Shown here: in pieces, positions 1,572 to 58,548 of the stretch
How positions within the stretch are numbered: position 1 is the stretch's first letter
How the letters are laid out: each line of letters opens with the position of its first letter
Sequence record: PZ445425.1
Length of the DNA: 60,068 nucleotides
Source: a phage
Reading direction: 5' to 3' (one strand)
Translations under genes and position numbers: made by a program
Notes under the pieces: generated by a model
Told to the model about the DNA's origin: nothing
The model's input: the letters and a program-made list of their open reading frames with translations, nothing else
Databases searched by the model: none

Positions 1572-3068
1572 ATGGGTATTGATGCAACTCACCCGCTATA
1601 TGACAAGTGGAAGGATGCATGGGTTAAGTGCAACGACTGCTATGAGGGTGAAGATAAAATTAAGGAAGAAGGTGTTAAATATCTACCACCTTTAGCTTCC
1701 ATGATTATTGATGGGATGAATAATCCTAATGATTTGGGCTTTCAACGTTGGCTCGCTTATCGTCTGCGTGCTAACTTCCCTGACGATTATTCAAGTGCGG
1801 TCACAAACAATTTAGGTCTGTTGCACCAGAAGCCTCCTACAATCCAGCTTCCCCCTGAAATGGAATACATGCGGGAGCTGTGTACTGCGGATGGTGAAGA
1901 CATTATCGCTCTACTACGTCGCATCAACGAAATGCAGTTAAAAAATGGACGTTTAGGCCTGCTTCTGGACTTGCCGAAAGGTGAGGATGTAAATAACAGA
2001 CCTTATATTAGCGTTTATGATGCTTTATCCATTATCAACTGGGATGATGGTAAAGATGAATTAGGCAATATCAACTTGAACATGGTTGTTCTGGATGAAA
2101 GCGGGCCTGTACGTGTTAATCAGTTTGACTGGAAAGAAGAGAAGCGTTATCGCGTTCTGCAATTAGGTCCGATGGACACAGATGAAGTTGCAGGTGGGGC
2201 GGTCTACTCCCAGCATTTATTTATCAACAATACCAATTATGATGAAGGACAAATGATTGCTCCTTATTATAAAGGTAACACGCTGGACGAAATACCTTTC
2301 CAGTTTGTTAATACAACAGATATTACACCAGCACCGGAAGCGCCTCCATTGTTGGGGCTAGCTAACATCTGCCTAAGCATGTACCGAAGCGACGCTGATT
2401 ACCGTCAAAGTCTGCATATGCAGGGTCAGGACACGTTAGTTGTTGTTGGTGGCTCGGGTGAGAATGGAGATAAAGCCCCTCAGCGCATCGGTCCCGGAGC
2501 GGTCATTAACGTTGCTCTTGGGGGTGACGCTAAATATGTAGGCGTTAGCGGTGATGGTTTGTCCGAGCAACGCCTTGCATTGGCAGCGGATAAGCAGGAA
2601 GCTCAGATTAAAGCTGGGCAGATGGTAAACAACACCAAGAGCACGCAGGAATCAGGCGAAGCTATGAAAACGCGTATTGCTGCGCGTACCGCTAGCCTGA
2701 TCCGAATTGCGTATACTGGTGCAGCAGGTTTGGAAAACTTGCTGAAGGTTTGTGCTAAATGGATGGGTGCTGATCCCGAGAAGGTTGTGGTTAAGCCTAA
2801 TCTTGAATTTACCAAGAGTATGTTCAATGGTCAGGACTTTGTTCAAATTATTACTGCACGCAACCTTAAGGCTCCGATCAGCTTGAAGTCTATTCATGGC
2901 TGGCTTGTTGATCAGGGCTTAACCACACTAAGCTTTGAAGAAGAAATGGCAATTCTTGAAGAAGAGCTTAAGAAGTGGCCTCTGCCCGATGATGCTAAGG
3001 CTGATTTAAACGCAGAGCAGCAAGTAAACAAAGATCCTAAGGAAGACGACGCTTCCGATAAAGAATAG
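1572..3068 (+). CDS. portal protein
   Basis: 498-aa ORF immediately after terminase; size and acidic C-terminus typical of portals; synteny. Confidence 0.6.
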   Translation: MGIDATHPLYDKWKDAWVKCNDCYEGEDKIKEEGVKYLPPLASMIIDGMNNPNDLGFQRWLAYRLRANFPDDYSSAVTNNLGLLHQKPPTIQLPPEMEYMRELCTADGEDIIALLRRINEMQLKNGRLGLLLDLPKGEDVNNRPYISVYDALSIINWDDGKDELGNINLNMVVLDESGPVRVNQFDWKEEKRYRVLQLGPMDTDEVAGGAVYSQHLFINNTNYDEGQMIAPYYKGNTLDEIPFQFVNTTDITPAPEAPPLLGLANICLSMYRSDADYRQSLHMQGQDTLVVVGGSGENGDKAPQRIGPGAVINVALGGDAKYVGVSGDGLSEQRLALAADKQEAQIKAGQMVNNTKSTQESGEAMKTRIAARTASLIRIAYTGAAGLENLLKVCAKWMGADPEKVVVKPNLEFTKSMFNGQDFVQIITARNLKAPISLKSIHGWLVDQGLTTLSFEEEMAILEEELKKWPLPDDAKADLNAEQQVNKDPKEDDASDKE

Positions 3069-3162
3069 TTGCAACTTCCAAATTGATTGGTTTATATTAA
3101 CGAACACGGGCTGGGACGGCTCAGCCCCAAAAACGTCACACGGGTGACAACGGAGATAAGAA

Positions 3163-9920: not shown

Positions 9921-12900
9921 TGGCCGAAACTGCTTCGCTAGTAATCAGGGTTGACGCGAAAGGGATTAGCACAGCGGACTCCATGCTGCGTAACCTTGCG
10001 CGTACAGGTGACACAGCGGAGCGTTCCGCTCAACGTGTCACATCCAGCTATAAGACATTGTCTAACGCATCTAACGAACTTGCAACTGTCACAAGTCGTT
10101 TAGATGCTGCAATTGTAGGAATGATTAGCGTCGACACCATTAACCGTGTTATTTCGCTATCGGACTCCTGGACTATCCTCACCAACAAACTTGAACTGGC
10201 TCGTACGGGTAATGAAACCGTTGCGGATGCACAGCAACGCGTGTTTGATATTGCCCAGCGGTCACGTACAAGCTTGGAAGCAACTGCAACTCTATATTCC
10301 CGTCTCCAGCGTGCAATGAAGAATACTGGTATGACAGGTATGGAGCTCGTGCGCATCACTGAAACAATCAACAAAGCAATGATCGTTTCTGGTGCAACGT
10401 CCCACGAAGCAAGTGCTGCTCTTATTCAGTTTTCGCAAGCGATGGCATCCGGTGTTTTGCGCGGGGATGAATTCCGATCTGTTGCGGAACAAGCTCCGCG
10501 CTTAACTCAAATCATGTCCGATTCGTTAGGCGTTACCATTGGACAATTGCGTGAGCTGGCCTACAGCGGCAAGTTAACCTCAGATGTGGTTATCAAATCG
10601 TTGTCTGGTGCTGCGGATACAATTGATAAAGAATTTAGCCGCACTATGCCAACGTTCAACCAGCAATGGACAGTTGCAACAAACAACCTCACTAAGTTTA
10701 TGGGCGAATCCCAAAAGACTCAAGGTGCGGTTGCTGCATTGGGTCAGACGTTTGTTGCGTTATCCAAAAACTTAGGAACGGTTGTAACAGTTGGTTCAGC
10801 TTTAGCCACAGTAATTACCGCCCGTATCATTACGGCAATGCTTGCTAAGACTAAAGCGTCTATAGCTGCTGCAAAAGCATCGCAGATGGAAGCTGCACAA
10901 ACGGCGGCAACTACTGCGGTGATGCAAAGCTCTATTGGCGTTACCGCGCAGAAAGCGGCTGCGGATCGTGCTGCTTCTCTTGCAGCGTTACAGGTTGCTC
11001 GCGGGTCATTAGCGGTTGCTAAAGGTACGGCAGCGGAAGCAGGCGCACGTCTTGCGCTTATTAACGCTACCCGTGCGCATTCTGCGGCAATTATGGCGGA
11101 CGTGCAAGCGCGGCAAGCGCTCAATGCTGCACTTAATGCAACTGTACCAGCCGCAAGCCGGGCAGCTACAGCAATGAGCGTGCTGCGCGGTGCTATGGGG
11201 TTAATTGGCGGTCCTGTTGGTGTAGCAATGCTGGCAGCGGGTGCAATTTACTCTTATAAAGCATCGCTGGAAGCTGGTCGTGCGGAAAACAATCAGTTTG
11301 CGGATAGTGTTGATTCTGTACGCGAGAAACTGATGCAGATGACAGAAGCTCAGTTGGCAGCTAACGCAGTTAAAGCTCGCGCAATCCTCCCCGAACTTGA
11401 AGAGCAAATGAAGCGGGAGCAAACTGCTCTTAAATCTGCAACGGAAACGCAGAAGTTCTATGAAGCACAATTAAAACGTCGTGCTGCGTCCGGTCGCGAT
11501 ACAGCTAGTGCCGAGAAGAACTTACAAATTGCAACGGATAACGTTAAGCTTGCTGCCGAGCGTGCTGAAGAAGCTCAACGCCGTTATAACAATGTCCTAG
11601 AAATGACAAGCCCTGCTATCGAGAAGATAATTCCGTTAGCTCGTCAGCTTGCTGCTGATATGAAGGCTGTTCTTAACATTAAATCAGGTCCACTTATTGA
11701 CGAGAAAGTCCTTGACCGTTTTAAAGGTCGGCTAGGTGATGTCAACCGTGAGATTGATGTTAACACGGTTAAGGGTGCTGGCAATGCTCGCCAAGCTGCA
11801 ATCCTTAGTGGACTGTATCAGACGCTGGGCAAGGATGCGGATACATACGGAAGTCTTATTCGCAAAGTAGCTATGGGCCAGGACGTTAGCTCAGAGGCAA
11901 CAAGCGAATCCGCTAAAGAGCTTGTTAAATATGCTCAAGATTTAGCGCAAGCTCTTGGCAAAAACTACGATCTTGAAGAAGCAGAGAGAAACCGGACTAA
12001 AGCTACAAAAGACGGTATTAAAGCAGAACAACAGAACGCCAAAGTTATTGACGATTTACGCAACAAGCTTAACGAAGTAACCACAGGAGTTAAGGAAAAC
12101 GCCAAAGCAAAAGCTCAAGCTGTGGCTTTAAACAAGCTCAATACGTCTGCAACTGCCGCGGAAAAAGCAGAAGTTATGAGTCTTGCTGCTGCGATTTATG
12201 AAGCGGAAGAAGCTCAAAAGAAACTGGACGAGCGTAAAAAGAATCGTAAAGTTGCTCAAGGTCTGTTAGATGAAGGTATGACGGACTATGAAAAAATCGC
12301 GTATGAGCAAAATACTAAGATTGCAGATCTTAATGCAAAACAACGGGCGGATGATTTAGCTTACTATCAGCTTTACGAAGATGCTAAAACCCAAGTGCTG
12401 AAAAAAGCAAGCATGGAAAGGGAAAACCTGGATAAAGTTCTTATGAACCGAATGATATCCTTTTCTCAGGAATCCTTAGGCATTATAATGGATGGGCTGT
12501 CACAGGCTGTAAGCCAGCAGAACTTCTTTTATAAAGCTATGTTTGCAGCACAGAAAGCAATGCAAATCCCATCAATCCTTGCCAACACGGAAACGGCAGC
12601 ATCTGCGGCGCTTGCATGGGGTACACAGCAAGGCGGTGCCACGATGGGTGCAACAATGGCGGCTATAGTGAAAACTATGGGTTATGCGTCCGCTGCCACT
12701 GTGGGTGGCTTAGCGATTGCTGGTATGGCTCACGACGGTATTGATAACGTTCCGCGTGAAGGTACATGGTTGCTGGATAAGGGTGAACGTGTACTTAATG
12801 CTCCGTCTAATGACAAGTTAAATCGCTTCCTGGATAGCCAAGCTTCACAACAAGGTGGCGTGAATATGTCCGGTGGTGTTAGCATTGTTCAGTATATCAC

Positions 12901-13036
12901 GGTGCAAGGAAATGGTGATGCAGCACTCACACAAGCCATGCAAAAAGCGGCCCGTGATGGCGCTGAGCAGGGATATAATAAAGTTCTTAATGACTTTGCA
13001 TCCCGAGGAACAATTCGTAGAACTGCAATGGGGTAA
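9920..13036 (+). CDS. tail tape measure protein
   Basis: 1038-aa Ala/Gln-rich largely helical protein right after the chaperone pair. Confidence 0.85.
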   Translation: MAETASLVIRVDAKGISTADSMLRNLARTGDTAERSAQRVTSSYKTLSNASNELATVTSRLDAAIVGMISVDTINRVISLSDSWTILTNKLELARTGNETVADAQQRVFDIAQRSRTSLEATATLYSRLQRAMKNTGMTGMELVRITETINKAMIVSGATSHEASAALIQFSQAMASGVLRGDEFRSVAEQAPRLTQIMSDSLGVTIGQLRELAYSGKLTSDVVIKSLSGAADTIDKEFSRTMPTFNQQWTVATNNLTKFMGESQKTQGAVAALGQTFVALSKNLGTVVTVGSALATVITARIITAMLAKTKASIAAAKASQMEAAQTAATTAVMQSSIGVTAQKAAADRAASLAALQVARGSLAVAKGTAAEAGARLALINATRAHSAAIMADVQARQALNAALNATVPAASRAATAMSVLRGAMGLIGGPVGVAMLAAGAIYSYKASLEAGRAENNQFADSVDSVREKLMQMTEAQLAANAVKARAILPELEEQMKREQTALKSATETQKFYEAQLKRRAASGRDTASAEKNLQIATDNVKLAAERAEEAQRRYNNVLEMTSPAIEKIIPLARQLAADMKAVLNIKSGPLIDEKVLDRFKGRLGDVNREIDVNTVKGAGNARQAAILSGLYQTLGKDADTYGSLIRKVAMGQDVSSEATSESAKELVKYAQDLAQALGKNYDLEEAERNRTKATKDGIKAEQQNAKVIDDLRNKLNEVTTGVKENAKAKAQAVALNKLNTSATAAEKAEVMSLAAAIYEAEEAQKKLDERKKNRKVAQGLLDEGMTDYEKIAYEQNTKIADLNAKQRADDLAYYQLYEDAKTQVLKKASMERENLDKVLMNRMISFSQESLGIIMDGLSQAVSQQNFFYKAMFAAQKAMQIPSILANTETAASAALAWGTQQGGATMGATMAAIVKTMGYASAATVGGLAIAGMAHDGIDNVPREGTWLLDKGERVLNAPSNDKLNRFLDSQASQQGGVNMSGGVSIVQYITVQGNGDAALTQAMQKAARDGAEQGYNKVLNDFASRGTIRRTAMG

Positions 13037-13039
13037 TAT

Positions 13040-13624
13040 ATGCTCACTTGGCCCGAAGAAATTAGACCGTCTGAGATGGAATGGTATCTAGTTTCAAACT
13101 CTGTAGAATTTACAAGCCCCTTCAATGGGGCTTCCCAAACTGTGTCCTATCCTGGATCACGATGGGAAGCAACGTTGACATTTAGTAATTTAAATGACTG
13201 GCAATCCAGAAAGCTCGAATCGACATTAGCTAAGCTTGATGGTAAAGCTGGTCGAATTATGCTTCAAGATTTTGGTCGTTGGGGACGTGCACCGATTGGA
13301 TCACCTGTGGTTAACGGTGCAAACAATACAGGGACAACTTTATCAACTAAAGGTTGGACACCTAATAGAAAGGTTTTATGGGAAGGGGATTACATCGCAG
13401 TAAACGATGAATTAAAATTAATAACCGAGGATGCTTGGAGCGATTCTTCTGGCAACGTGATATTAAATATCGCCCCGATGCTAAGGACTATTCCACCGAA
13501 TGGAGCTAAAATCGAAACTCAAAAGCCACAAGGGGCTTTCCGGTTAGCGGAAAATACTAACGGGGTTAAGCGTCAGCCAGCTTTTAATAATTCATTCACT
13601 CTAAAATTCTCGGAGGCGTTCTAA
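13040..13624 (+). CDS. minor tail protein (putative)
   Basis: 194 aa, follows tape measure; synteny. Confidence 0.45.
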   Translation: MLTWPEEIRPSEMEWYLVSNSVEFTSPFNGASQTVSYPGSRWEATLTFSNLNDWQSRKLESTLAKLDGKAGRIMLQDFGRWGRAPIGSPVVNGANNTGTTLSTKGWTPNRKVLWEGDYIAVNDELKLITEDAWSDSSGNVILNIAPMLRTIPPNGAKIETQKPQGAFRLAENTNGVKRQPAFNNSFTLKFSEAF

Positions 13625-14208
13625 TGCTATTCAGTCCTTTCAGCGATACGCTTCTCAACGCAATGGAGCAGTCGAACGTTAGTCTGGTACTTGCTGCGGA
13701 AATTGACTTTCCTTCTGGTGTAACGCGTGTGCATACTGGGACAGGGGTTGTTGTTATTAATGGTCAGACTTTCCTTGGCGTTGGTACTCTTGGGGACGTT
13801 GGGTCAGTGACTGAGGAAAACAGCACTAGCTCCAGCACAATGTCCATGGCGCTTAGCGGTCTGGACATGAGTCTTGTTGGGGAGACATTAAATGAAGAAG
13901 TTATCGGGCGTAATGTTGTTTGCTATATTGCAGTGATGAACGATCAAGGTAACGTCATTGCTGCTAATATTTTATTTGAAGGTTTTATTACCGACACGGC
14001 ATTACAAGCTGGTCAACAGAATGCATTGAGTTATGTTATTTCCAACGTGTTTGAGCGTTGGTCACAAGGTTTACCGGATCGCTATACAGATGAAAGTCAA
14101 CAGCGTTTATATCCAGGCGACCGTTTCTTTAGATACATTGCACAAATGGCTGAACGTTCAATCTTTTGGGGGAGTAAGAAAGATGCGCCAGGGTTCTCCT
14201 ATGAGTAA
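13624..14208 (+). CDS. minor tail protein (putative)
   Basis: 194 aa, start overlaps preceding stop. Confidence 0.45.
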   Translation: MLFSPFSDTLLNAMEQSNVSLVLAAEIDFPSGVTRVHTGTGVVVINGQTFLGVGTLGDVGSVTEENSTSSSTMSMALSGLDMSLVGETLNEEVIGRNVVCYIAVMNDQGNVIAANILFEGFITDTALQAGQQNALSYVISNVFERWSQGLPDRYTDESQQRLYPGDRFFRYIAQMAERSIFWGSKKDAPGFSYE

Positions 14209-14617
14209 GTTGCCGGGCTGGCAGACACGTTTATTAACCACAGTAAAGGAGTTGTCATCGACTCCTTTTTCTTGGGGTGAGAATGATTGCTGCACCTTCG
14301 CGGCAAAATGTGTTGATGCTCAATACGGCACAAATATCTACGAACAAGTCGCTGGAAAATATAGTACAGAGCTTGGAAGTAAAAAGTTCACTATTGAAAG
14401 AGTTGGAACCGCTTACCTTCCATTGTTATTGGATACCTACCTCAGCGAACGCGTTGACAAGAACTATGCGCAAAGAGGTGATGTGGTTACATTTGAGGGA
14501 GCATTGGGCTTAACTGCTGGCATATTATGGACGGGATATGTATGGGCTATGGGTCCGAACGGTGTGGAAACATTCCCGCTTAATAAGATCAAAATTACGG
14601 ATATTTGGAGGGTCTAA
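14201..14617 (+). CDS. tail assembly protein, possible peptidase-like (K-like)
   Basis: Track ORF 14033..14617 trimmed to ATG 14201 (ATGA overlap with upstream stop); contains SWGENDCC motif. Confidence 0.35.
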   Translation: MSKLPGWQTRLLTTVKELSSTPFSWGENDCCTFAAKCVDAQYGTNIYEQVAGKYSTELGSKKFTIERVGTAYLPLLLDTYLSERVDKNYAQRGDVVTFEGALGLTAGILWTGYVWAMGPNGVETFPLNKIKITDIWRV

Positions 14618-17600
14618 TGCCACCAGCAATAATTGGAGCAGCGATAGCTTTAGGTGCGTCGGCTGCTGCTGCGGCTAGTATTATTTCGGCTACTACCGCT
14701 CTCGTTATCGGTATTGCTGCAACCGCGGCAGGTGCTCTTTTGTCTAAGACACCAAATATGAACTTTGATGCTTACAAGGGGCAGCAAGAGCGTAAACAGG
14801 TTCTGCGTGCAGCTACAGCGTCACGTTCTGTTGTATATGGCACGACTGTAGCGTCCGGACTATTAGCATTTGCGGAGGAAGAAGCTGGAGATCAAGATGA
14901 AGGTGAATGGATGCATCTTGTTGTCGTTCTTGCTAGTCATAAATTGGAAGGTATTGAAACGATTTGGTTGGGTGATGACGGAATTGATTGGTTTGGTGAA
15001 AACGCTACTTGGGAGTTCCATAACGACCGTCAGACTGTTGACCCATTCATGTTAAAACATTGTCCTTCCTGGAAGGAGGATATGATTGGCAAGGGTATTG
15101 CATGGCTACGTTTAAGCTTAAAGTTTGATGCTGAAAAATTCCCATCCGGTTTGCCAAACGTCAAGGTGTTGAAAAAGGGACGTAGAGTTTATGACCCACG
15201 TTCCGGTCAAACTGTCTTTAGCGATAACGCTGCTCTTGTTATTCTTGATTATTTCCGCACGTATTTAAAGCGCAAGGACGAGAATATTAACTGGGACCAA
15301 TTCAAGGAAGCTGCTAACATCTGCGATGAGTTTGTTACTAACGCAGATAATACTACGGAAAGACGCTATCGCATTAACGGTGAGTTTGAAGTGGACGAAG
15401 CACCTGCCAAAATCCTTGATGCTATGCTTGAAGCTTGCGGTGGGGAACTAACCTATATTGGCGGCAAGCATGGTCTGTTAGTTGGCGCTTATTACGGCCC
15501 AGCTACCATGACTTTGGATGAAAGCTGCATTGCTGGGGATATTAAAATAATCCCTGAGACATCTTATAAAGAGCGTACAAATACCATTACAGGTACATTC
15601 GTCGACCCGAAGCAAACATATGCTGAAGCAGATTTTCCTCCAGTTGTGGTTAAGGAATGGGTGGAAAAAGATGGCGGTGAAATAACGCAAGACATGGATT
15701 TCCGCTTTGTTACAAGTGAATATCAAGCTCAACGTCTTGCTAATATTATTTTACGTCGTAAGCGTGTTGGTCGAACAATTGAAGTGCCGTGTAACATGAA
15801 GGGGTATAAATTCCGCCCCGGCATGTATGTCAACGTAACCATTTCAAATATCGGAATGAAAAACGTTGAGATGCGCGTTACTAAATGGTCATTCGATCCT
15901 AAAGGTGGGATTAATCTTGTCCTTCGTCAAGATTTCCTGGAAATGTGGGACGACGCTATTGGTAAACCAATGGAGCGCCCGGATCTGGTAGACCTTCCGT
16001 CTGGTGCTATTGCTCAACCGCAAAACCTTCAGTATCAGGTATTGCAAATTAGCGATGTTGTGCAGGGTGTTTTAACGTGGAGCAATATTGGACAGGTGGC
16101 ATATAACCGCGTAGCCGTGCGACAGGGAGGTACAACGGTTTGGACCGCACAAGTCCCTGGCCAAAACGTTCGCGTTACTGGGCTGCTGCGGGGCGCGTAT
16201 ACAGCGCATGTTCAAGCGGTAGCTTATAGCGGGGCAATATCGCCTGAAGCATATCTGGAATTTAATATTCAGGCTCCGCCGCCACCAACATCTATTGAAG
16301 TACAACAGGGTTACTTTGCTATAAGCCTGATCCCTAAATCTGCGGACCTTGCAAACGTTAGCACGCAGTATGATTTTTGGACTTCCGGTGAAACAAGATT
16401 GTCATCTGTGTCTACAGACGTTGTTGAGCGTGAAGCAACTCGTAAAGGTATGGGCACAACCTGGACTTCGGAAGGTTTGAAGAATGACCACACTTATTAC
16501 TGGTATGTCCGCACCATTAACGCTTTCGGATCATCTGCATTTGTAGAAGTAGCTGCATTGTGCTTTACAACAGCTACAGATTTGATGCCACAAATTGATT
16601 CTGAATTCAAGAAGACGGAGACTTATAAAGAGCTCACTACTGAAATCACAGGTGTTAAAGATGGAGTTACTCAGCTTAGCCAAACTGTAGTGCAAACTGA
16701 AAAGCGTTTAAGTCAAAGCGTTAGCAATGTTCAACAAAGCGTTATCACTTTGGATGGTGTTGTTCAGGATCATGGCGTTACCATTAATAAACAAGGACAG
16801 CTCATCGATGCACAGGGTAAGTTGATTGACACTCAAGGTAAGACTATTGAAACGGTTAGCGCGACCGTGCAGGAGACAAGTAAAGCAGTTGTAGATCTGG
16901 AAGGTAATGTTAACGCTCAATGGGGTGCTAAAGTACAGGTAGATAGTAAAGGGCAAAAATACGTTGCTGGTATGCAGTTAGGTATGGAAGGGTCCGGTGG
17001 AGCTGTTCAGTCTTACTTCATGGTAAGCGCTAACAACTTTGCTATCTATAACCCGACAAATAGCGTAGCAGAACTAGCATTTGCTGTTAAGAACGGTCAA
17101 GTGTTCATGAAGGCTGCGTTTATTGAAAATGGTACTATTGACAGCGCTAAAATTTCAAATCAAATTCAGTCAACAAACTACGCAAACAATAGCGCGGGTT
17201 GGATGATTAACAAGAATGGTAGCGCTCAGTTTAACAACGTAACGATAAGAGGTACTGTATACGCTAGCAACGGATCTTTCACAGGCACAGTGAACGCAAC
17301 AAGCGGTAAATTCAAGGGTACTGTGGAAGCTACCAGTTTTGTGGGTGATGTTGCGAATATGTGTGTCATTGCTGAGTCTGCAATACCAAACACACAAACT
17401 ACAAGTTCAAGAACCTGGACAAAAACTTTCAAAGACTCATCTGGTTCAACATTATCTAAAGACTTTGTGTTGCTATTAAGTTATACTTTAACCGCATATA
17501 AATCAAATCAGGCAAGTCGTATAATTGTGACTGCTAACATAGGGGGGACATCAATTACAAGGAGGATTGAGCGAGCTGCTAATGGTCCTGCCATGGATGT

Positions 17601-17744: not shown

Positions 17745-17775
17745 AATTAACCCCTCAAACGAGGGGTTAATTTTC
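17745..17775. terminator. bidirectional intrinsic terminator
   Basis: Perfect 12-bp palindrome aattaacccctc-aaac-gaggggttaatt with T-run; lies between convergent genes. Confidence 0.7.
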
Positions 17776-18007
17776 AATAAGCAATCACACAGTTTGAAGG
17801 TGAACCAATTCGTCGGTATTCATGATCAATCTCATGGCACCATTGCCCAGTCATTGGAAGCTTTTCGGTATCATAAATTAAAGAACCGTTACCATCACGG
17901 TCTAACGGTTTTGGAATAACGCCGGAATTAGGTTTACCCGTATTTAAACCGTTACCACATGCAGTGAGGGATAAAGTTAATGCCAGCATAATTAAAGCGC
18001 GTTTCAT
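17774..18007 (-). CDS. small lipoprotein, candidate receptor-blocking superinfection-exclusion factor
   Basis: 77 aa with signal peptide and lipobox LTAC; only minus-strand gene in the tail module, sitting between two fibre genes. Confidence 0.55.
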   Translation of the reverse strand: MKRALIMLALTLSLTACGNGLNTGKPNSGVIPKPLDRDGNGSLIYDTEKLPMTGQWCHEIDHEYRRIGSPSNCVIAY

Positions 18008-23035: not shown

Positions 23036-23306
23036 AGGTATTGATAAAGTCGTTGAAGGGCTTTCTATTCGTGCTCATGTTATAGCAGACGAAGGTCATG
23101 ATCAACTTACAATTATGAAATCTGCATTCAGCGATTTTAAGTCTCTTGGAAACTTAAGCGGGTTAATGACTGTGGTGTCGACCGGAAAATTAACCCAGCA
23201 GCAAATCAGTCTAGCTCAGCGTATTGCTGTTAAAGTTATTGCGGTACTTGGGATGATTGAAGCTGAAAAGCCCAGTTCCAAGCAGGATAACGAAAGCGAC
23301 CTTTAA
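23022..23306 (+). CDS. hypothetical protein
   Basis: 94-aa ORF overlapping upstream stop. Confidence 0.45.
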   Translation: MTKNEGIDKVVEGLSIRAHVIADEGHDQLTIMKSAFSDFKSLGNLSGLMTVVSTGKLTQQQISLAQRIAVKVIAVLGMIEAEKPSSKQDNESDL

Positions 23307-23317
23307 GGAGGTCTACT

Positions 23318-23521
23318 ATGTGTGGTAATACTAACCGTTGCTGTCTAGGCAGTCCTGCAACACAAGCAGGTATACTTCAGGGGCAATTGGCTCAAGCAGC
23401 GTGTAATTGCAAAACTTTTCAACCAGTAGCGCCAACTCCTGTGTTTGTGAATGCTTTTGCACCGCCTGTTTTCAATACTTTTGGCGTATACCCATACGGT
23501 GCTTTCTTTCGTATATTCTAA
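23318..23521 (+). CDS. small Cys-rich protein
   Basis: 67 aa, RBS GGAGG; several Cys. Confidence 0.4.
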   Translation: MCGNTNRCCLGSPATQAGILQGQLAQAACNCKTFQPVAPTPVFVNAFAPPVFNTFGVYPYGAFFRIF

Positions 23522-23527
23522 GAAGAG

Positions 23528-23553
23528 AAAAGGGGCAGACGCCCCCTTTCTTT
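23528..23553. terminator. bidirectional terminator between plus and minus modules
   Basis: aaaaggggc-agac-gccccctttc; A-run and T-run flank the stem. Confidence 0.7.
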
Positions 23554-23833
23554 AACGCTTATGAAAAGCTGACAGGATTGCAAGTGTTACAGCACCCAAT
23601 CCGACGACGGTAGCATAAGTGAGTTGGGGTTGAACTTTAACAAAGCCATAATAGGTGCTAGGGATGTCTACAATCCCAAACGCCATAGCAAAGCTGGTCC
23701 CAAGTAGTGCTACAGCAAGGGCGCGTAATAACGCCCTGCTCATTGCTGTAAAGCCCTTCTCATTACTATCTCCGGTCATTATAACAACAATGATTAGAAA
23801 TAGCGAAACGACAACTAATAGATATTCCATCAT
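23552..23833 (-). CDS. small membrane protein
   Basis: 93 aa with two to three hydrophobic helices. Confidence 0.45.
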   Translation of the reverse strand: MMEYLLVVVSLFLIIVVIMTGDSNEKGFTAMSRALLRALAVALLGTSFAMAFGIVDIPSTYYGFVKVQPQLTYATVVGLGAVTLAILSAFHKR

Positions 23834-24036
23834 TTGCGTCTCCTGTACATGTATTGATCATACGCAGTCGCAATAATAGCGACTGGCCAGCAAGCGAGTA
23901 TACATAGAAGACTTACAATCTTCTCCCAACGTTTCTTATGGGCTAGCGCATAATCATAGTTATTCCAACAAAAGAAATAAGTCATTGCTGCAATAACTGC
24001 ACCAATTACAAAATACATAACCACATATTCATGCAT
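23830..24036 (-). CDS. small membrane protein
   Basis: 68 aa with hydrophobic helices. Confidence 0.45.
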   Translation of the reverse strand: MHEYVVMYFVIGAVIAAMTYFFCWNNYDYALAHKKRWEKIVSLLCILACWPVAIIATAYDQYMYRRRK

Positions 24037-24223
24037 CGGTAAACTCCCAAATCAGATTATAATTATTTCCCGCTGGTACATAGCGCCCTGGACGTGGATC
24101 GAAGCTTTTCACTGAAAACTCCAGCGTTCCAGCGCTATATAGTTGCACCTTTTGTCCGTCCCACGGTCCGCCGATCAATTTAAAAGTCTGTCGATAACCT
24201 TTTGCAGCTTTAGCCATGCTCAC
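24029..24223 (-). CDS. hypothetical small protein
   Basis: 64 aa; RBS AAGGAG upstream. Confidence 0.45.
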   Translation of the reverse strand: MSMAKAAKGYRQTFKLIGGPWDGQKVQLYSAGTLEFSVKSFDPRPGRYVPAGNNYNLIWEFTDA

Positions 24224-24230
24224 TCCTTAA

Positions 24231-24259
24231 ATACCCGCGCGAACGCGGGTATTATTTTA
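24231..24259. promoter_or_regulatory. intergenic hairpin
   Basis: atacccgcg-cgaa-cgcgggtat. Confidence 0.35.
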
Positions 24260-24475
24260 TTACGCTTCCGGTGTTTCCGGTGTTTCCGGTGATGGTTCAT
24301 CAGGAACAACAATAACGTCGGCTAAAACTTTTAACGCTTCTTGCTGCTCCGCGGTCATATTATTCCAGTAATAGACGTGAATGTAAACTACTGGTTTGTC
24401 ACCATGTTGCCACGGTTCGCGACTTACTACATCCGCAGCTAAATCGCTTGCTACGCTCTTTTCTTTACCAGCCAT
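24260..24475 (-). CDS. acidic small protein
   Basis: 71 aa with PETPETPE C-terminus encoded by a cggtgtttc tandem repeat. Confidence 0.4.
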   Translation of the reverse strand: MAGKEKSVASDLAADVVSREPWQHGDKPVVYIHVYYWNNMTAEQQEALKVLADVIVVPDEPSPETPETPEA

Positions 24476-24507
24476 GCTAATATACCCCTTTAAGGTTTTA
24501 CACGCGG

Positions 24508-24801
24508 CTAGCCCCCAAAAGTACCCCTATGATCAAGGGTTCTAATGCGCTGCTCCAGCCAACGTGCGTTCTTTTCAAAATGTTTATTGGTACGCGCTGC
24601 TTTGCACGCATCAATAATACCTAACTCACATCCAAGCTGCGTTTGTCCCATCACGTAAGAATGAGTTAACATGCTGGATACAAGGTCTTCACATTGTAAC
24701 TTAATAGGATGGTCTTGGCATAGTTTCTTTGCTGCATCTTTTAAATCCACACCTTGGACACCAGGCGCTATCAGCAAAGTTACGAGTAATAAACGTTTCA
24801 T
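24508..24801 (-). CDS. secreted/periplasmic small protein
   Basis: 97 aa with N-terminal signal peptide and four Cys. Confidence 0.45.
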   Translation of the reverse strand: MKRLLLVTLLIAPGVQGVDLKDAAKKLCQDHPIKLQCEDLVSSMLTHSYVMGQTQLGCELGIIDACKAARTNKHFEKNARWLEQRIRTLDHRGTFGG

Positions 24802-24902
24802 TATGCTTTCCCTTTACGACATAAGGCTTGAAGTTCCAGAAGCGCATCAATGTCTTCCTGTGGAGTTACACCAACGTGAATTGGATATTTAGCGCGACAT
24901 TC

Positions 24903-25085
24903 TTAGCCAACTTCAACAGTGTGGTTAATGTAGCCGTAAACACATCCACCAATAACAGTGAAGATAAGCGCAACAATCATTGTAAGGTATTTACCTTGTT
25001 TGCGTTCTTCATTTTGTTTATTAAGCTGACGGTTAAGTTCCACCGCGTCGATTTTACCTTTGTTGTAATCGTCTACTAAGCTCAT
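24903..25085 (-). CDS. small membrane protein
   Basis: Start moved to ATG at 25085 (RBS AGGAG); one transmembrane helix. Confidence 0.4.
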   Translation of the reverse strand: MSLVDDYNKGKIDAVELNRQLNKQNEERKQGKYLTMIVALIFTVIGGCVYGYINHTVEVG

Positions 25086-25116
25086 TTTGCATCTCCTCTT
25101 GTTGTATGCATATATT

Positions 25117-25139
25117 AAAACAGACCCGCGAAGGGTCTG
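25117..25139 (-). terminator. terminator after DNA polymerase gene
   Basis: cagaccc-gcgaa-gggtctg; T-run on minus strand. Confidence 0.55.
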
Positions 25140-25149
25140 CAAGTAGAAT

Positions 25150-27135
25150 TTAGGCATATCCCATGTCTTCGAGATACTTCTCTGCTTTAGCTATATAAGC
25201 ATCATAATCTATGTCGTCCGGTATTTTATCCGGTAGCGTCATGATTGGGACACCTCCCGCGCTACCAGCTACACGGTTGCCCGAGTTAGCATAGATTATT
25301 TCAGGGGTTTCTTCATTGGTGCTTAAATACCAGCGTACAACCTTACCCAAAAATTCGCCATTCCATACCGCGCCGCCTTTTACTGCACGTAGGATAATGA
25401 ATTTTCTAATATCGTTGCAATTGCGTATAGTACGAGAAACAGGCGTACCGTGGGCCAAACATTCACATACAGCTTCCATAATAATTTCACCAGTACAGTT
25501 CTTTTGAAGCCCTGTCTTGGCAAACCAGCCCTTACGCTTAACTTCAACGTTACCTTCTGCATCAGGTTCTTTGACAGCTACATAGTTGTTAACGTTCGCG
25601 CTATATAGCTTGTCATAATAAGTGGATTCCATTTCAAAACCTGTGACGGATTCCCACCACTTGATCATGTTATCAACGAAGTCCTGCATGTGGTCAGGAT
25701 ACTTAACCACAATACCATCCGTGTTAGCTGAAATTACTTTAACACCGTTTAGCTCGAATGCTTCAATAAGCATTAACAGTGATAGTTGCCCTGTGATAGT
25801 TACCTGTATCAACAATTGCGGAGCGTACAGTACGGACCACATTGAACCCAATTTACCAAACGATCCGTTAATTACGATCTTCAGCGTATTGGCTGTGTTC
25901 TTGTCCCCTGAGTGCTTAGCTGCAATACGTCGGTCTACAATGCTTTTATAAACACGAAGAAACGCTGGTCCCAACTGCTCAGGATACAAGCCCTGATTAA
26001 GAATAATCGAAGGGTAATAGGACGTTACGTCAATATCCCGCTTCTTGATTCCAGGCTCTTTACCGTGTCCAGCGCATTCTTCAGAGCTGTGCAAACCACC
26101 AATACCCATACGGTAAACACCGTCTGCAATTTTAATCTCCAGGCCTGATAACGCTGGGGGCAAGCTAACGCCACCGTTATCGCTAACAACAAAGCGGCAG
26201 TCCCGAACAATATCCAAAACACTATTCATCAGAGGTGTTTGAAAACGAATAAAGTCCGGTATGTTATATGCATATTTAGTTCCAGGATAAACTTGTGGAC
26301 GCTGCGGACGCACGCCCGTTAACGCTTGAATTTCGTGTTTAATCACGTCTTCTGCAATCTGCGCATCAGAACGTGAACGCAGATCCACACCGTATTCTTG
26401 CGACATAATTACACGAAGATGTAAAGGTTCCTGTAATGCAATAAAACATTCTTCCGTCTGTACAAGGTCGTTAATACAGTACCAGCGTACAATCAACATC
26501 TGGTCCTGCGTCAGCATTGTATTTGGCTTGAACGGTAAATCCTGCATATGGCGAGTATGTACACGTCCGCCATATTGTTTCAAACCACCGGACCCAGGCA
26601 GCACTTCCATAATATCAATGTGGTTAACGTTCTGCATACGCTTAAGGCGGTAACTCTTCAACACATCGGAAGGACGCCAGTCTTCCACGATTATCTTATC
26701 GGTTGCATCTTTAAGCTGAGCATTAGAGCATCCGTTAAGCGCAAGCGTAGCAATGGGCATATCGTACCCGTTACCGTTAAAGCTTACGATAAGGAAGTTT
26801 GTCATTACCCAGTTAAGTAACAAGCAATTCAAACTACAACCGTGATACATTTCAAAGTAAACAACTTTCTTAGTTCGTACTCCGCGAAATGCAATTAAGA
26901 AATAGTTTAGATAACATTCAATATCGTACACAAGCGGTTCGCGGTTAATCCATGCTTGAATAAGTTCGTCCTGCGTATACAGGTTGTATTGGAAGTTCCG
27001 CGCTTCTTCAAGGTTAGGCAGATAATCCGGGCGCTCCCAAGTGCGCTCCGGCGGTAAACGTTTAACCTTTTCTTTCTTTGCTTTTGGCTCAGGCGGTAAG
27101 TCCTGCCAAAAGAAACCAATAGCATCTGTCCGCAT
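25150..27135 (-). CDS. DNA polymerase with family-B-like motifs and 3'-5' exonuclease
   Basis: Exo motifs YDIECY, FNGNGYD, YCINDL; polymerase motifs DVTSYYPSII, KIVINGSFGK, NTDG; start set to ATG 27135, overlapping upstream stop as TAATG. Confidence 0.6.
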   Translation of the reverse strand: MRTDAIGFFWQDLPPEPKAKKEKVKRLPPERTWERPDYLPNLEEARNFQYNLYTQDELIQAWINREPLVYDIECYLNYFLIAFRGVRTKKVVYFEMYHGCSLNCLLLNWVMTNFLIVSFNGNGYDMPIATLALNGCSNAQLKDATDKIIVEDWRPSDVLKSYRLKRMQNVNHIDIMEVLPGSGGLKQYGGRVHTRHMQDLPFKPNTMLTQDQMLIVRWYCINDLVQTEECFIALQEPLHLRVIMSQEYGVDLRSRSDAQIAEDVIKHEIQALTGVRPQRPQVYPGTKYAYNIPDFIRFQTPLMNSVLDIVRDCRFVVSDNGGVSLPPALSGLEIKIADGVYRMGIGGLHSSEECAGHGKEPGIKKRDIDVTSYYPSIILNQGLYPEQLGPAFLRVYKSIVDRRIAAKHSGDKNTANTLKIVINGSFGKLGSMWSVLYAPQLLIQVTITGQLSLLMLIEAFELNGVKVISANTDGIVVKYPDHMQDFVDNMIKWWESVTGFEMESTYYDKLYSANVNNYVAVKEPDAEGNVEVKRKGWFAKTGLQKNCTGEIIMEAVCECLAHGTPVSRTIRNCNDIRKFIILRAVKGGAVWNGEFLGKVVRWYLSTNEETPEIIYANSGNRVAGSAGGVPIMTLPDKIPDDIDYDAYIAKAEKYLEDMGYA

Positions 27136-28088
27136 TAGACACGTTCTCCAATTAATACACCGCGAAGATTTTCCCCAAAGAATGCGCAAGGTTGCGGATA
27201 CAAACTAAAGTCCGCAGTCTTAACCACATTTTCAAGCAATAGCAGGATATCAATATTGTACACTCCCGTAATTGTCCGGTCCTGCAATACGAAGCTTGCA
27301 CCTTCCGCATCATCATAGTGAGTACGGGCTAGACCGTTTTCGATATATACACGCGGTCTGTCTTCTGCGAAAGGTTTGATTTTATGCAAGCCTTCAAAAA
27401 GACCTGGATCAACAGGATGTGCATTGCATGGAACATTTAAAATACGACGTATATCTGGCCACTCCGCATCAATAAGCTGTGTCCGCAACCAGCGACCTTC
27501 CGGATAATGAAACGTTACGTTATTTTTACTGACCTGAATATGCGTCGGGTTAGCTTTAATACGCAGTATTTCTTTAATTGCAACGGAAGGTATTATGCAA
27601 TCGATAGGGAACTGATTACCAAACCAGTATTCCGCAATAGTGACGTTATTTGTAGCAAACAGGCTACCGTTATTAATCAGGATACCGCAAGCCCACGGAC
27701 GGGAAGCATCGGACCCAACAAATGGAGCAACGGACTTTACACCATGCACGAAGCGAGCACCGTCTATCTCGTATAACTCCCCTTCAGGGAATACGTGAGG
27801 CGTTTCCTTGTCAATGCAGCGTATAGCAACACGAAACGGTCCGGACTTGATATTAAGTTTACCGTTAGCCATCATTGTTAACTGTACGGTTTCGTCACAG
27901 TTTGAAATAGCCTTAATCATTGGACCCGCTTCGGGCTTACAATCAATATCCAGCTCAATAGGACTACCCAGTGCAATAACACCGTTAAAGCCTTGTACCT
28001 GCCCGTCACGAATAAGAAAACTGGTAAGCCCTTCTACCAGTTCCTTTTTAGCAACAGAGCCTTGAACAAATTTAAGAGCGTCTAACAT
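27135..28088 (-). CDS. hypothetical protein (317 aa) coupled to polymerase
   Basis: Long ORF with no recognisable motif; recurring TTAACCACA box about 22 nt upstream. Confidence 0.5.
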   Translation of the reverse strand: MLDALKFVQGSVAKKELVEGLTSFLIRDGQVQGFNGVIALGSPIELDIDCKPEAGPMIKAISNCDETVQLTMMANGKLNIKSGPFRVAIRCIDKETPHVFPEGELYEIDGARFVHGVKSVAPFVGSDASRPWACGILINNGSLFATNNVTIAEYWFGNQFPIDCIIPSVAIKEILRIKANPTHIQVSKNNVTFHYPEGRWLRTQLIDAEWPDIRRILNVPCNAHPVDPGLFEGLHKIKPFAEDRPRVYIENGLARTHYDDAEGASFVLQDRTITGVYNIDILLLLENVVKTADFSLYPQPCAFFGENLRGVLIGERV

Positions 28089-58512: not shown

Positions 58513-58515
58513 CTG

Positions 58516-58539: not shown

Positions 58540-58548
58540 GGAGGGAAC

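What the first reader, a model, noticed from the sequence alone, without database searches (positions are those of the whole stretch)
23552..25085. Run of six small membrane, secreted or acidic proteins at the start of the leftward module
These 60-100-aa ORFs with transmembrane helices or a signal peptide sit directly after the bidirectional terminator. The true lysis cassette is elsewhere (58075..59513), so they are more likely host-takeover, superinfection-exclusion or anti-defence factors.
Basis: inference. Interest (0 to 1): 0.4.

Follow-up and report, generated by a model that had tools for sequence, protein, structure and literature searches.

The report
Swappable accessory gene cassette after polymerase
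The six small genes are real but dispensable accessory genes at the tail end (not the start) of the leftward replication operon of a Seuratvirus coliphage, and the only one with a published phenotype is a tiny soluble protein whose loss makes a near-identical phage more sensitive to the BREX defence system.

Summary
The window is a Seuratvirus (Queuovirinae) E. coli siphophage. Six Shine-Dalgarno-preceded minus-strand ORFs lie between the DNA polymerase stop (25150) and a bidirectional terminator (23528..23550), and all are under purifying selection.

- They are the promoter-distal end of the leftward module, behind a terminator-like hairpin, not its start.
- ORF4 is basic and soluble, so it is neither membrane, secreted nor acidic.
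- ORF1 carries a private nonsense codon here (60 aa, against 94 aa in all 35 relatives).

The block behaves as a swappable cassette. One close relative replaces window 23267..25080 with a different two-gene set. VogelGryff lacks ORF6 and half of ORF5. Only ORF4 is present in every lineage, and it is also a sharp diversity peak.

A published knockout library of ΦDruSM1 (98% identical here) deleted all six genes, so none is essential. Only ΔORF32 (our ORF4, 100% identical protein) plated worse on BREX type I, and that result was not complemented.

My reading is that ORF4 is a candidate anti-BREX factor. The four envelope proteins (ORF1, 2, 5, 6) probably modify the inner membrane or periplasm, possibly for superinfection exclusion; this is untested, and they show no homology to T4 Sp, Imm or RI. 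The lysis cassette does lie elsewhere. Overall this is modestly interesting.

The parts
25106..25150 (-). Boundary element just after the polymerase stop codon. It contains a terminator-like hairpin (stem-loop 25140..25120, GCAGACCC-TTCGC-GGGTCTG, then TTTTAAT). It marks the 5' edge of the cassette.
   Evidence: The hairpin is found by the scan and folds at -17.4 kcal/mol, z -2.6. It is annotated as a terminator in Seurat and SA80RD. The roughly 45-nt element TAAAT..ACTTGCAGACCCTTCGCGGGTCTGTTTTAATA is nearly invariant in STP-SP5, yong3, L021, L025 and L019, although the flanking DNA is only 70-79% identical. It occurs once in the window. An overlapping TTGCAG-N17-TTTAAT promoter preceded by TGn is possible but unproven.
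24903..25085 (-). ORF1, a nonsense-truncated allele (60 aa). It has a conserved cytoplasmic N-terminus (MSLVDDYNKGKIDAVELNR) and one TM segment. The family is 94 aa, with a periplasmic tail carrying two conserved Cys.
   Evidence: The ORF is listed. phrog_26834 matches positions 1-60 of a 94-position profile. Codon 61 is TAA here, against TAC, AAC or GAC in relatives. All 35 relatives are full length. dN/dS is 0.27 against STP-SP5. The TM segment spans residues 31-54. The ΦDruSM1 ORF35 deletion is viable.
24801..24902 (-). Untranslated remnant of the ORF1 3' part. In relatives it encodes the periplasmic tail ECRxKYP...LCRKGKA. The ancestral stop overlaps the ORF2 ATG (ATAATG).
   Evidence: Alignment with Dru_SM1, Seurat and VogelGryff. 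In-frame translation through the stop is shown.
24508..24801 (-). ORF2, a Sec-exported periplasmic protein. The mature form is about 80 aa, with four predicted helices and four conserved Cys (C28, C37, C58, C66). It has no lipobox.
   Evidence: The ORF is listed. phrog_23744 matches at E 2e-66. The Cys are conserved in STP-SP5 and yong3. The AF2 model shows four helices but pLDDT is 54. It has no PDB sequence hit and no meaningful PDB fold hit. The family is narrow, with only 3 clusters in 5.8 billion proteins. The ORF34 deletion is viable.
24260..24475 (-). ORF3, a small acidic cytoplasmic protein (pI 4.4, net charge about -8). Its C-terminal P-E-T-rich tail varies in length between phages.
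   Evidence: phrog_22730. Present in the E. coli clade, STP-SP5, L021 and L025, and absent from yong3 and L019. dN/dS is 0.19. The ORF33 deletion is viable.
24230..24253 (-). Ten-bp GC-rich hairpin with a UUCG loop between ORF3 and ORF4, abutting the ORF4 ribosome-binding site. It splits the cassette into two sub-units. It may be a weak terminator, a processing site or an mRNA-stabilising element.
   Evidence: Found by the scan. It folds at -15.8 kcal/mol, z -3.2. It is annotated as a terminator in SA80RD. A hairpin is present at the same place in STP-SP5 and L025, and a different hairpin precedes the ORF4-like gene in L019.
24029..24217 (-). ORF4, a 62-aa basic soluble beta-rich protein. It has a K/R-rich N-tail, an LIGGPWDG motif, and GRY...WEF flanking a hypervariable loop. 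It is the core gene of the cassette and a candidate anti-BREX factor.
   Evidence: The true start is the ATG at 24217. phrog_12090. It is present in every lineage examined. Nucleotide diversity peaks at pi 0.21-0.23, against 0.00-0.06 in flanks. pN/pS is 0.14 in the core and 0.74 in loop 47-56. The family has 35 representatives, mostly 55-90 aa, and resembles single propeller-blade repeats. ΦDruSM1 ΔORF32 is listed under 'Brex type1'.
23830..24036 (-). ORF5, a 68-aa membrane protein with two TM segments. Its start overlaps the ORF4 stop (ATGCATGA).
   Evidence: phrog_23919. It is found by similarity search only in E. coli Seuratviruses; a distant homologue with an extra TM in yong3 was judged by eye from the sequence pattern, not scored. 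It is truncated to 36 aa in VogelGryff. The ORF31 deletion is viable with no defence phenotype.
23552..23833 (-). ORF6, a 93-aa membrane protein with three TM segments and a near-invariant loop motif YYGFVKxQHQLTYA. This window has the private change H68P at 23632..23630. Its start overlaps the ORF5 stop (ATGATG).
   Evidence: phrog_15669. Homologues at about 52% identity occur in Nonanavirus (9NA gp16, AVIO78A), Sashavirus and Eiauvirus. In the three loci inspected (9NA, AVIO78A, eiAU-183) the homologue is the last gene before a convergent junction. dN/dS is 0.09. It is deleted in VogelGryff. Frameshifted or truncated copies occur on metagenomic contigs and in eiAU-183. The ORF30 deletion is viable.
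23528..23550 (.). Bidirectional intrinsic terminator shared by the leftward operon and the rightward tail-fibre-distal genes.
   Evidence: It is annotated on both strands in Seurat and SA80RD.

Best explanation
The six ORFs form a terminator-bounded, exchangeable accessory cassette. It sits at the 3' end of the leftward DNA-replication and deazaguanine-modification operon of a Seuratvirus, and it has two sub-units.

Sub-unit A (ORF1, ORF2, ORF3):
- ORF1 is a bitopic inner-membrane protein, N-in and C-out, with a periplasmic two-Cys tail.
- ORF2 is translationally coupled to ORF1. It is a Sec-exported periplasmic helical protein with four Cys.
- ORF3 is a small acidic cytoplasmic protein.

Sub-unit B (ORF4, ORF5, ORF6) follows a UUCG hairpin. 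Its three genes are translationally coupled.
- ORF4 is a 62-aa basic beta protein.
- ORF5 has two TM segments and ORF6 has three.

Shown:
- The genes are real and under purifying selection.
- None is essential for plaque formation on laboratory E. coli.
- Cassette content varies between lineages, and ORF4 is the only universal member.
- ORF4 is a local hotspot of allelic diversity.
- Deleting the identical ORF4 gene in ΦDruSM1 changed plating on a BREX type I host. The main text describes the nine BREX deletions as less infectious.

Inferred:
- ORF4 acts directly against BREX, probably by binding a BREX protein through its variable beta-hairpin loop. It probably does not act through DNA modification, because its deletion did not sensitise to the 'restriction-like' system as the preQ0-pathway deletions did.
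- ORF1, ORF2, ORF5 and ORF6 act at the inner membrane or periplasm of the infected cell. The most plausible role is conditionally useful exclusion or envelope modification, for example blocking DNA entry of a second phage. Lysis is less likely.
- This isolate carries damaged copies of that envelope set: ORF1 nonsense and ORF6 H68P.

My probabilities:
- Accessory-cassette architecture: about 0.9.
- ORF4 as a genuine anti-BREX protein: about 0.45.
- Envelope proteins as exclusion or envelope modifiers: about 0.3.
For: Identity and layout:
- Megablast and annotation place the window in Seuratvirus, with polymerase, clamp and queuosine genes upstream on the same strand.
- Hairpins flank and split the block.
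- Start/stop overlaps couple ORF1/2, ORF4/5 and ORF5/6.

Coding:
- PHROG matches and dN/dS of 0.05-0.3.

Cassette behaviour:
- L019 and L020 are 94% identical to the window through the polymerase down to 25081. They then carry an unrelated 610-bp insert: an ORF2-like gene, a hairpin, an ORF4-like gene and a terminator. Homology resumes at 23266.
- VogelGryff (Bas25) lost ORF6 and half of ORF5.
- STP-SP5 and L025 lack ORF5, L021 lacks ORF2, and yong3 lacks ORF3.

ORF4:
- It is present in all of these lineages.
- pi is 0.21-0.23, against 0.06 or less in flanks. Loop pN/pS is 0.74 against 0.14 in the core.

Experiment:
- In Ojima et al. (bioRxiv 10.1101/2024.04.14.589459), Table S1 lists all six deletions as 'synthesized: Yes'.
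- 'Brex type1' is entered only for ORF32 among the six. [quoted passage not shown]
- The ORF30 and ORF31 deletions downstream show no BREX entry, which argues against polarity on ORF5 or ORF6. The primers map exactly on the window.

Context:
- A 2026 preprint reports that a Seuratvirus resists native BREX, that dPreQ0 does not explain this, and that an unknown anti-BREX strategy may exist.

Envelope targeting:
- Signal peptide, TM segments and conserved periplasmic Cys pairs.
- ORF6 homologues in 9NA, AVIO78A and eiAU-183 are each preceded by a small signal-peptide or TM protein with two Cys.
Against: ORF4 and BREX:
- The link rests on one preprint's supplementary table.
- The effect size is not readable, because Table 1 is an image.
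- No complementation of ORF32 is reported. The authors themselves warn of polar effects, mis-annotation and non-coding RNA.
- Plasmid-borne BREX from E. coli HS still restricted all Queuovirinae tested, so any anti-BREX activity is partial or allele-specific.

Fold evidence:
- AF2 models are low confidence (pLDDT 54 and 62) and gave no meaningful fold matches, all with E above 1.
- No fold-based support therefore exists for any mechanism.

Envelope proteins:
- No exclusion assay exists for any of them.
- Five of the six deletions had no phenotype.
- Recurrent truncation of ORF6 and the private lesions here could equally mean the genes are nearly neutral.
Confidence: 0.55

Rival explanations
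1. The six are a functional set of early host-takeover or superinfection-exclusion proteins expressed at the start of leftward transcription.
For: Four of the six are envelope-targeted. Known exclusion proteins such as T4 Imm and Sp are small membrane or periplasmic proteins. T4 imm also lies just downstream of its DNA polymerase gene. A separate lysis cassette exists.
Against: The genes are promoter-distal, behind a conserved terminator-like hairpin about 25 kb from the far end of the leftward module. There is no homology to T4 Sp, Imm, Imm.1, RI or Vs; the best hhalign probability is 12%, over 29 columns, probably the signal peptide. A Cor/Llp-style lipoprotein candidate already sits at 17774..18007, next to the tail fibre genes. 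The cassette is not inherited as a unit.
Confidence: 0.2
2. The membrane and periplasmic members (ORF1, ORF2, ORF5, ORF6) tune lysis timing. They would act as antiholin, holin-like or lysis-inhibition factors on the holin encoded at 58549..58893.
For: ORF6 has the three-TM layout and size of class I holins. ORF1 and ORF2 resemble T4 RI in size and in presenting a small Cys-containing domain to the periplasm.
Against: There are no holin or antiholin family hits and no profile similarity to RI. A complete endolysin-holin-spanin cassette exists elsewhere. All deletions give plaques. The natural phage VogelGryff lacks ORF6. The ORF6 C-terminus is only 'HKR', not a charged holin tail.
Confidence: 0.1
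3. The cassette has no defence-related role. The ΔORF32 BREX effect would be indirect (RNA structure, altered expression of neighbours, or a general fitness loss amplified on a restrictive host). The six genes would be near-neutral ORFans kept by linkage and shuffled by recombination at a junction hotspot.
For: There is no complementation, and the authors caution about polar or RNA effects. Five of the six deletions have no phenotype. Lesions in ORF1 and ORF6 recur here, in eiAU-183 and in metagenomic contigs. The block lies at a convergent junction next to the highly recombinogenic tail-fibre region.
Against: Purifying selection is clear across lineages that are 70% identical at the DNA level. 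ORF4 is retained in every cassette variant, including the minimal one. The ORF32 deletion keeps the upstream hairpin, the ATG and the ORF5 ribosome-binding site. The downstream deletions lack the BREX phenotype. No Rfam RNA lies in the block.
Confidence: 0.2

Closest known systems
Phage accessory regions or 'morons': variable, terminator-bounded gene sets between conserved core genes, often holding anti-defence or exclusion genes
   Same: The block is bounded by hairpins. It is flanked by conserved core sequence, namely the polymerase and the tail-fibre-distal genes. Its content differs between otherwise 94%-identical genomes. Its genes are non-essential. One gene is linked to counter-defence.
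   Different: No independent promoter has been demonstrated. The cassette sits at the end of an operon and may depend on read-through of the 25140..25120 hairpin.
Known anti-BREX proteins (T7 Ocr, a DNA mimic; ICP1 OrbA; T3 SAM lyase)
   Same: Like them, ORF4 is a small phage protein whose loss lowers plating on BREX type I.
   Different: ORF4 is basic (pI 9.5) and beta-rich, so it is not an acidic DNA mimic. It has no Pfam or PDB match. The mechanism, the target and complementation are all unknown.
T4 superinfection-exclusion and lysis-inhibition proteins Imm, Sp (spackle) and RI
   Same: ORF2, Sp and RI are each 97 aa; Imm is 83 aa against 68 aa for ORF5 and 93 aa for ORF6. They share cellular address: periplasmic behind a signal peptide (ORF2 versus Sp and RI), or small polytopic inner-membrane proteins (ORF5 and ORF6 versus Imm). 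They also share a position near replication genes.
   Different: There is no detectable sequence or profile homology, no fold match (on a low-confidence model) and no functional test.
ORF6 homologues in Nonanavirus (9NA gp16), Sashavirus and Eiauvirus
   Same: They are about 52% identical, share the three-TM layout, and carry the invariant YYGFVKxQHQLTYA motif. In 9NA, AVIO78A and eiAU-183 the gene is the last one before a convergent junction.
   Different: They sit in unrelated genomic neighbourhoods, next to terminase and portal genes in 9NA and after methyltransferases in eiAU-183. All are annotated only as hypothetical proteins.

Membership tests
Moron / accessory-region cassette | Presence or absence, or replacement, between closely related genomes with conserved flanks | tested here: met
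   L019 and L020 replace window 23267..25080, while the flanks are 94-96% identical. VogelGryff, STP-SP5, L021 and yong3 each lack different members.
Moron / accessory-region cassette | Own promoter and terminator | tested here: inconclusive
   Terminator-like hairpins lie at both ends. No sigma-70 match passes the scan upstream of ORF1. Only a weak TTGCAG-N17-TTTAAT preceded by TGn lies inside the conserved element.
Anti-BREX protein (functional class) | Loss of the gene lowers plating specifically on BREX-positive hosts | not testable with these tools
   The only evidence is from the literature. ΦDruSM1 ΔORF32, whose protein is identical to ORF4, is listed under 'Brex type1' among nine such deletions. 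The magnitude is not readable.
Anti-BREX protein (functional class) | Gene supplied in trans restores plating, or inhibits BREX on its own | not tested
   Complementation is reported only for ORF46 and ORF72.
Ocr-type DNA mimic | Strongly acidic surface that mimics DNA | tested here: not met
   ORF4 has pI 9.5 and net charge +2.5. ORF3 is acidic (pI 4.4), but its deletion has no defence phenotype.
T4 Spackle (Sp) | Sequence or profile homology to Sp | tested here: not met
   hhalign of the ORF2 profile against T4 Sp gives probability 12% over 29 columns, probably the signal peptide. No Sp chain appears in the PDB sequence search or the fold search (low-confidence model).
T4 Spackle (Sp) | Sec signal peptide and a small periplasmic mature protein | tested here: met
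   The ORF2 signal peptide is MKRLLLVTLLIAPGVQG|VD. The mature protein is 80 aa with four conserved Cys.
T4 Imm | Homology to Imm (83 aa, two TM) | tested here: not met
   No hhalign probability above 5% for ORF5 or ORF6 against Imm.
T4 RI antiholin | Homology to RI | tested here: not met
   No hhalign probability above 5% for ORF1 or ORF2 against RI.
Holin | Match to a holin family, and being the only holin of the lysis cassette | tested here: not met
   No holin family in the PHROG or Pfam scans for ORF5 or ORF6. A phrog_785 holin lies at 58549..58893, next to the endolysin and spanins.
Cor/Llp-type exclusion lipoprotein | Lipobox with Cys at +1 after the signal peptide | tested here: not met
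   The ORF2 cleavage region is VQG|VD, with no Cys. A lipobox protein (LTAC) is instead encoded at 17774..18007.

The most novel reading that the evidence does not exclude
ORF4 would found a new class of anti-BREX inhibitors. These would be very small (55-90 aa) basic proteins built like one beta-propeller blade (GGPWDG...GRY...WEF). A hypervariable hairpin loop would bind a BREX component, with several ancient alleles kept in circulation by an arms race. This would explain why Seuratviruses resist native BREX although dPreQ0 does not protect them. A bolder version adds that ORF4 works together with its translationally coupled membrane partners ORF5 and ORF6.
Probability: 0.3. Interest if true: 0.6.

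Novelty: new member of a known kind. Interest (0 to 1): 0.35.

Why it matters
Few anti-BREX proteins are known. A 2026 study left open how Seuratviruses evade native BREX. ORF4 is a concrete, cheaply testable candidate with natural allelic variants ready for specificity tests. The cassette also shows that a single conserved junction after the polymerase gene acts as a docking site for exchangeable accessory genes in Queuovirinae. That junction is a sensible place to mine for further counter-defence or exclusion genes. For genome annotation, the practical gains are a corrected ORF4 start, the ORF1 nonsense allele, and the correct transcriptional position of the block.

Tried and rejected
- Pfam scan of all six ORFs: nothing above threshold.
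- PHROGs: only families of unknown function. One weak ORF2 hit to the T4 Vs family (E 0.0036) was not confirmed by hhalign.
- Word-indexed search of 5.8 billion proteins for ORF2, ORF4 and ORF6: only close Seuratvirus relatives, with no names or domains.
- AlphaFold2 of ORF2 and ORF4: pLDDT 54 and 62.
- Foldseek against PDB with those models: no match with E below 1. In particular there was no Spackle, RI or Ocr hit. I treat this as uninformative rather than negative.
- PDB sequence search with the ORF2 profile: nothing.
- The idea that ORF2 is Spackle-like, ORF5 or ORF6 Imm-like, or ORF1 or ORF2 RI-like: rejected as homology by hhalign.
- Sigma-70 promoter scans of the leftward module: counts no higher than in shuffled sequence. 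I make no promoter claim.
- Search for other copies of the boundary element in the window: none.
- Rfam and tRNA scans of the block: nothing.
- Multi-stretch hits of the ORF4 profile to WD40, FG-GAP and Ig-repeat proteins: I read these as resemblance to a beta-blade repeat, not as homology to those proteins.
- The Seuratvirus comparative-genomics paper (PMC5758909) and the EVADES preprint: neither says anything about these genes.
Full report
**What the window is.** The 1.9 kb around the finding is 93-98% identical to about 33 E. coli phages of the genus Seuratvirus (Queuovirinae). The closest is ΦDruSM1 at 98.3%. Annotated relatives show one long leftward module on the minus strand. It holds primase, helicase, ligase, the queuosine/deazaguanine genes, the sliding clamp and the DNA polymerase. 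It runs from about 49 kb down to the finding. Cumulative GC skew turns at about 23-24 kb, where the two transcription directions meet.

**The observation.** Six minus-strand ORFs fill 23552..25085, each with a Shine-Dalgarno motif:
- ORF1, 25085..24903: 60 aa, one TM segment.
- ORF2, 24801..24508: 97 aa, Sec signal peptide, four Cys.
- ORF3, 24475..24260: 71 aa, pI 4.4.
- ORF4, 24217..24029: 62 aa, pI 9.5, soluble.
- ORF5, 24036..23830: 68 aa, two TM segments.
- ORF6, 23833..23552: 93 aa, three TM segments.

All six match PHROG families of unknown function at E 1e-29 to 1e-66, and none matches Pfam. Against Salmonella phage STP-SP5, which is about 70% identical in DNA, dN/dS is 0.09-0.27. They are therefore genuine genes. 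The bidirectional terminator at 23528..23550 is also real.

**Three corrections.**
1. The genes are the last, not the first, genes of the leftward module. They follow the polymerase stop (25150) and a terminator-like hairpin at 25140..25120, which is annotated as a terminator in Seurat and SA80RD.
2. ORF4 does not fit the description 'membrane, secreted or acidic'.
3. ORF1 is short only because this genome has TAA at codon 61 (24905..24903). Relatives have TAC, AAC or GAC there. All 35 relatives encode a 94-aa protein whose stop overlaps the ORF2 start codon, and whose lost tail carries two conserved Cys.

**Anatomy.**
- A second hairpin with a UUCG loop (24253..24230, -15.8 kcal/mol) abuts the ORF4 ribosome-binding site and splits the block.
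- Start/stop overlaps couple ORF1 to ORF2 (ATAATG in relatives), ORF4 to ORF5 (ATGCATGA) and ORF5 to ORF6 (ATGATG).
- ORF1 probably has its N-terminus in the cytoplasm. Its two-Cys tail probably lies in the periplasm, alongside the exported four-Cys ORF2. The conserved Cys pattern holds even in Hafnia phage yong3, where ORF2 is only 29% identical.
- ORF6 carries a near-invariant YYGFVKxQHQLTYA motif between TM2 and TM3.

**The block is an exchangeable cassette.**
- Metagenomic contigs L019 and L020 are 94% identical to the window through the polymerase down to position 25081.
- They then carry an unrelated 610-bp insert: a 99-aa signal-peptide four-Cys protein, a hairpin, a 61-aa ORF4-like gene and a terminator.
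- They regain 96% identity at window 23266.
- VogelGryff (BASEL Bas25) keeps ORF1-4 but has only 36 codons of ORF5 and no ORF6.
- STP-SP5 and L025 lack ORF5. L021 lacks ORF2 and has a novel 149-aa gene. yong3 lacks ORF3.
- ORF4 is the one gene present in every variant.
- The 5' boundary is a roughly 45-nt element (TAAAT..ACTTGCAGACCCTTCGCGGGTCTGTTTTAATA, window 25106..25150). It is almost invariant across lineages whose flanks are only 70-79% identical, and it is unique in the window.
- It may combine a terminator with a recombination anchor or a weak promoter. I could not decide between these.

**ORF4.**
- Among nine E. coli Seuratviruses, nucleotide diversity is 0.00-0.06 across most of the block. 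It jumps to 0.21-0.23 exactly over ORF4.
- Synonymous divergence is high throughout the gene (pS about 0.55).
- pN/pS is 0.14 in residues 1-46 but 0.74 in residues 47-56.
- Those residues fall in the last beta-hairpin of the low-confidence AF2 model, which places strands at 44-51 and 54-59.
- At least three allele groups exist.
- An exhaustive profile search of 1.84 billion representatives found 35 relatives. Most are 55-90 aa proteins with a K/R-rich N-tail and the pattern GGP[WFY][DH]G...GTLxFxV...GRY...W.
- The same search gave weak multi-stretch matches to beta-propeller repeat proteins, and a 300-aa protein with five tandem IGGGWDG units.
- ORF4 therefore looks like a single blade-like beta unit. 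This is a resemblance, not a family assignment.

**Experimental evidence from the literature.** Ojima et al. (bioRxiv 10.1101/2024.04.14.589459) built an ORF-by-ORF deletion library of ΦDruSM1.
- Their deletion primers map exactly onto this window. Their ORF30 to ORF35 correspond to ORF6 to ORF1 here, and the deleted intervals are 23576..23827, 23857..24026, 24060..24214, 24284..24472, 24532..24798 and 24825..25082.
- All six deletion phages were obtained, so none of the genes is essential on laboratory E. coli.
- In the column 'defence changed by ORF deletion', only ORF32 (our ORF4, protein 100% identical) has an entry, 'Brex type1'.
- Exactly nine rows carry that entry. This matches the text statement that nine deletion mutants were less infectious on BREX type I.
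- The preQ0-pathway deletions also sensitised to the 'restriction-like' system, and ORF32 did not.
- Deletions of the downstream genes ORF31 and ORF30 have no BREX entry. This argues against polarity on those two genes, and against an effect through DNA modification.
- Caveats: the effect size is in an image table, no complementation of ORF32 is reported, and the authors warn about polar and RNA effects.
- Independently, a 2026 preprint found that Seuratvirus φHS1 is resistant to the native BREX of E. coli HS. It found that dPreQ0 does not block BREX, and it raised an unknown anti-BREX strategy as a possibility. Plasmid-expressed BREX still restricted all Queuovirinae tested.

**The envelope proteins.**
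- ORF6 has homologues at about 52% identity in unrelated siphophages: Nonanavirus 9NA gp16 and AVIO78A, Sashavirus, and Eiauvirus.
- In the three loci I inspected (9NA, AVIO78A, eiAU-183) the homologue is the last gene before a convergent junction. It is preceded by a small signal-peptide or TM protein with two Cys.
- The ORF4-like gene of Erwinia phage AH03 is flanked by small TM proteins.
- These recurrences suggest action at the inner membrane or periplasm, but nothing more specific.
- I tested the obvious analogues. hhalign of family profiles against T4 Sp, Imm, Imm.1, RI, RI.1 and Vs gave at best 12% probability, probably from the signal peptide.
- PDB sequence and fold searches gave nothing meaningful.
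- The lysis cassette is complete elsewhere: endolysin, phrog_785 holin, and i- and o-spanins at 58075..59513.
- A lipobox protein next to the tail fibres (17774..18007) is the more obvious receptor-blocking exclusion candidate.

**State of the genes in this isolate.** Besides the ORF1 stop, two otherwise invariant positions are changed. ORF2 has A17G at the -1 position of the signal-peptide cleavage site. ORF6 has H68P inside its invariant motif. ΦDruSM1 has H68R at the same nucleotide. Frameshifted or truncated ORF6 copies also occur in eiAU-183 and on several roughly 60-kb metagenomic contigs, although some of these may be assembly errors. This fits genes that are useful only under some conditions.

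**Verdict.** The six are accessory genes rather than lysis genes, and one of them (ORF4) has preliminary evidence for counter-defence against BREX. Exclusion or envelope modification by the other membrane and periplasmic proteins remains an untested inference. As a kind of feature, a variable accessory cassette at an operon end, this is ordinary for phages. The specific lead on ORF4 gives it modest interest.

Noticed in passing
window 24903..24905 (minus strand, ORF1 codon 61): A private nonsense codon, TAA, against TAC, AAC or GAC in all 35 relatives. It removes the periplasmic two-Cys tail of ORF1. It also uncouples ORF1 translation from the ORF2 start about 100 nt downstream.
   Followed up: yes
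window 23630..23632 (ORF6 codon 68) and the same codon in ΦDruSM1 (L002): The His in the invariant motif is CAC or CAT in all other full-length homologues, including 9NA-like phages. It is CCC (Pro) here and CGC (Arg) in ΦDruSM1. Two closely related phages thus carry different changes at the same nucleotide, which may reflect parallel selection or laboratory adaptation.
   Followed up: partly
window 25106..25150: A 45-nt element around the post-polymerase hairpin is far more conserved than the surrounding coding DNA, across lineages that are 70-79% identical. It coincides with the left junction of cassette replacement in L019 and L020. It may be a terminator combined with a promoter or a recombination anchor.
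   Followed up: partly
window 17774..18007 (minus strand): A 77-aa lipoprotein (lipobox LTAC) sits alone on the opposite strand between the J-like tail tip gene and the tail fibre gene. Relatives annotate it as a lipoprotein moron with a bidirectional terminator. It is a likely Cor/Llp-type receptor-blocking exclusion protein. Its ΦDruSM1 deletion (ORF21) is viable.
   Followed up: partly
L003 4457..4648, L021 3692..3883, L025 3863..4054: STP-SP5 and two metagenomic lineages carry an extra conserved 63-aa basic gene (MPKxNE.Y...GRIFY...DRLxDRKRxKKIxDxYRWL). It overlaps the end of the polymerase gene and lies upstream of the boundary element. It is absent from the E. coli clade and from this window.
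   Followed up: no
window 24263..24290 (ORF3 3' end): The P-E-T-rich C-terminal tail of ORF3 varies in length between phages. It ends ...PETPETPEA here and in ΦDruSM1, and ...PETPE in most others. This is consistent with slippage in a short CCGGAAACA-type repeat.
   Followed up: no
Ojima et al. Table S1 (ΦDruSM1 ORF36 and ORF37; window 25150..28088): The knockout table lists deletions of the DNA polymerase and its sliding clamp as obtained ('Yes'). That would be surprising for a lytic phage. It suggests either host-polymerase rescue or a lenient essentiality criterion, and it bears on how much weight 'non-essential' carries in that data set.
   Followed up: no
L017 (T4) 11374..14894: In T4 the exclusion gene imm and the Cys-rich putative lipoprotein gene imm.1 lie immediately downstream of DNA polymerase gene 43. 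This is a positional parallel to this cassette, without sequence homology.
   Followed up: partly
L004 (VogelGryff) about 2985..3092: The swap of the tail-fibre module in VogelGryff has its breakpoint inside ORF5. The convergent junction is therefore a recombination hotspot shared by the host-range genes and the accessory cassette.
   Followed up: partly
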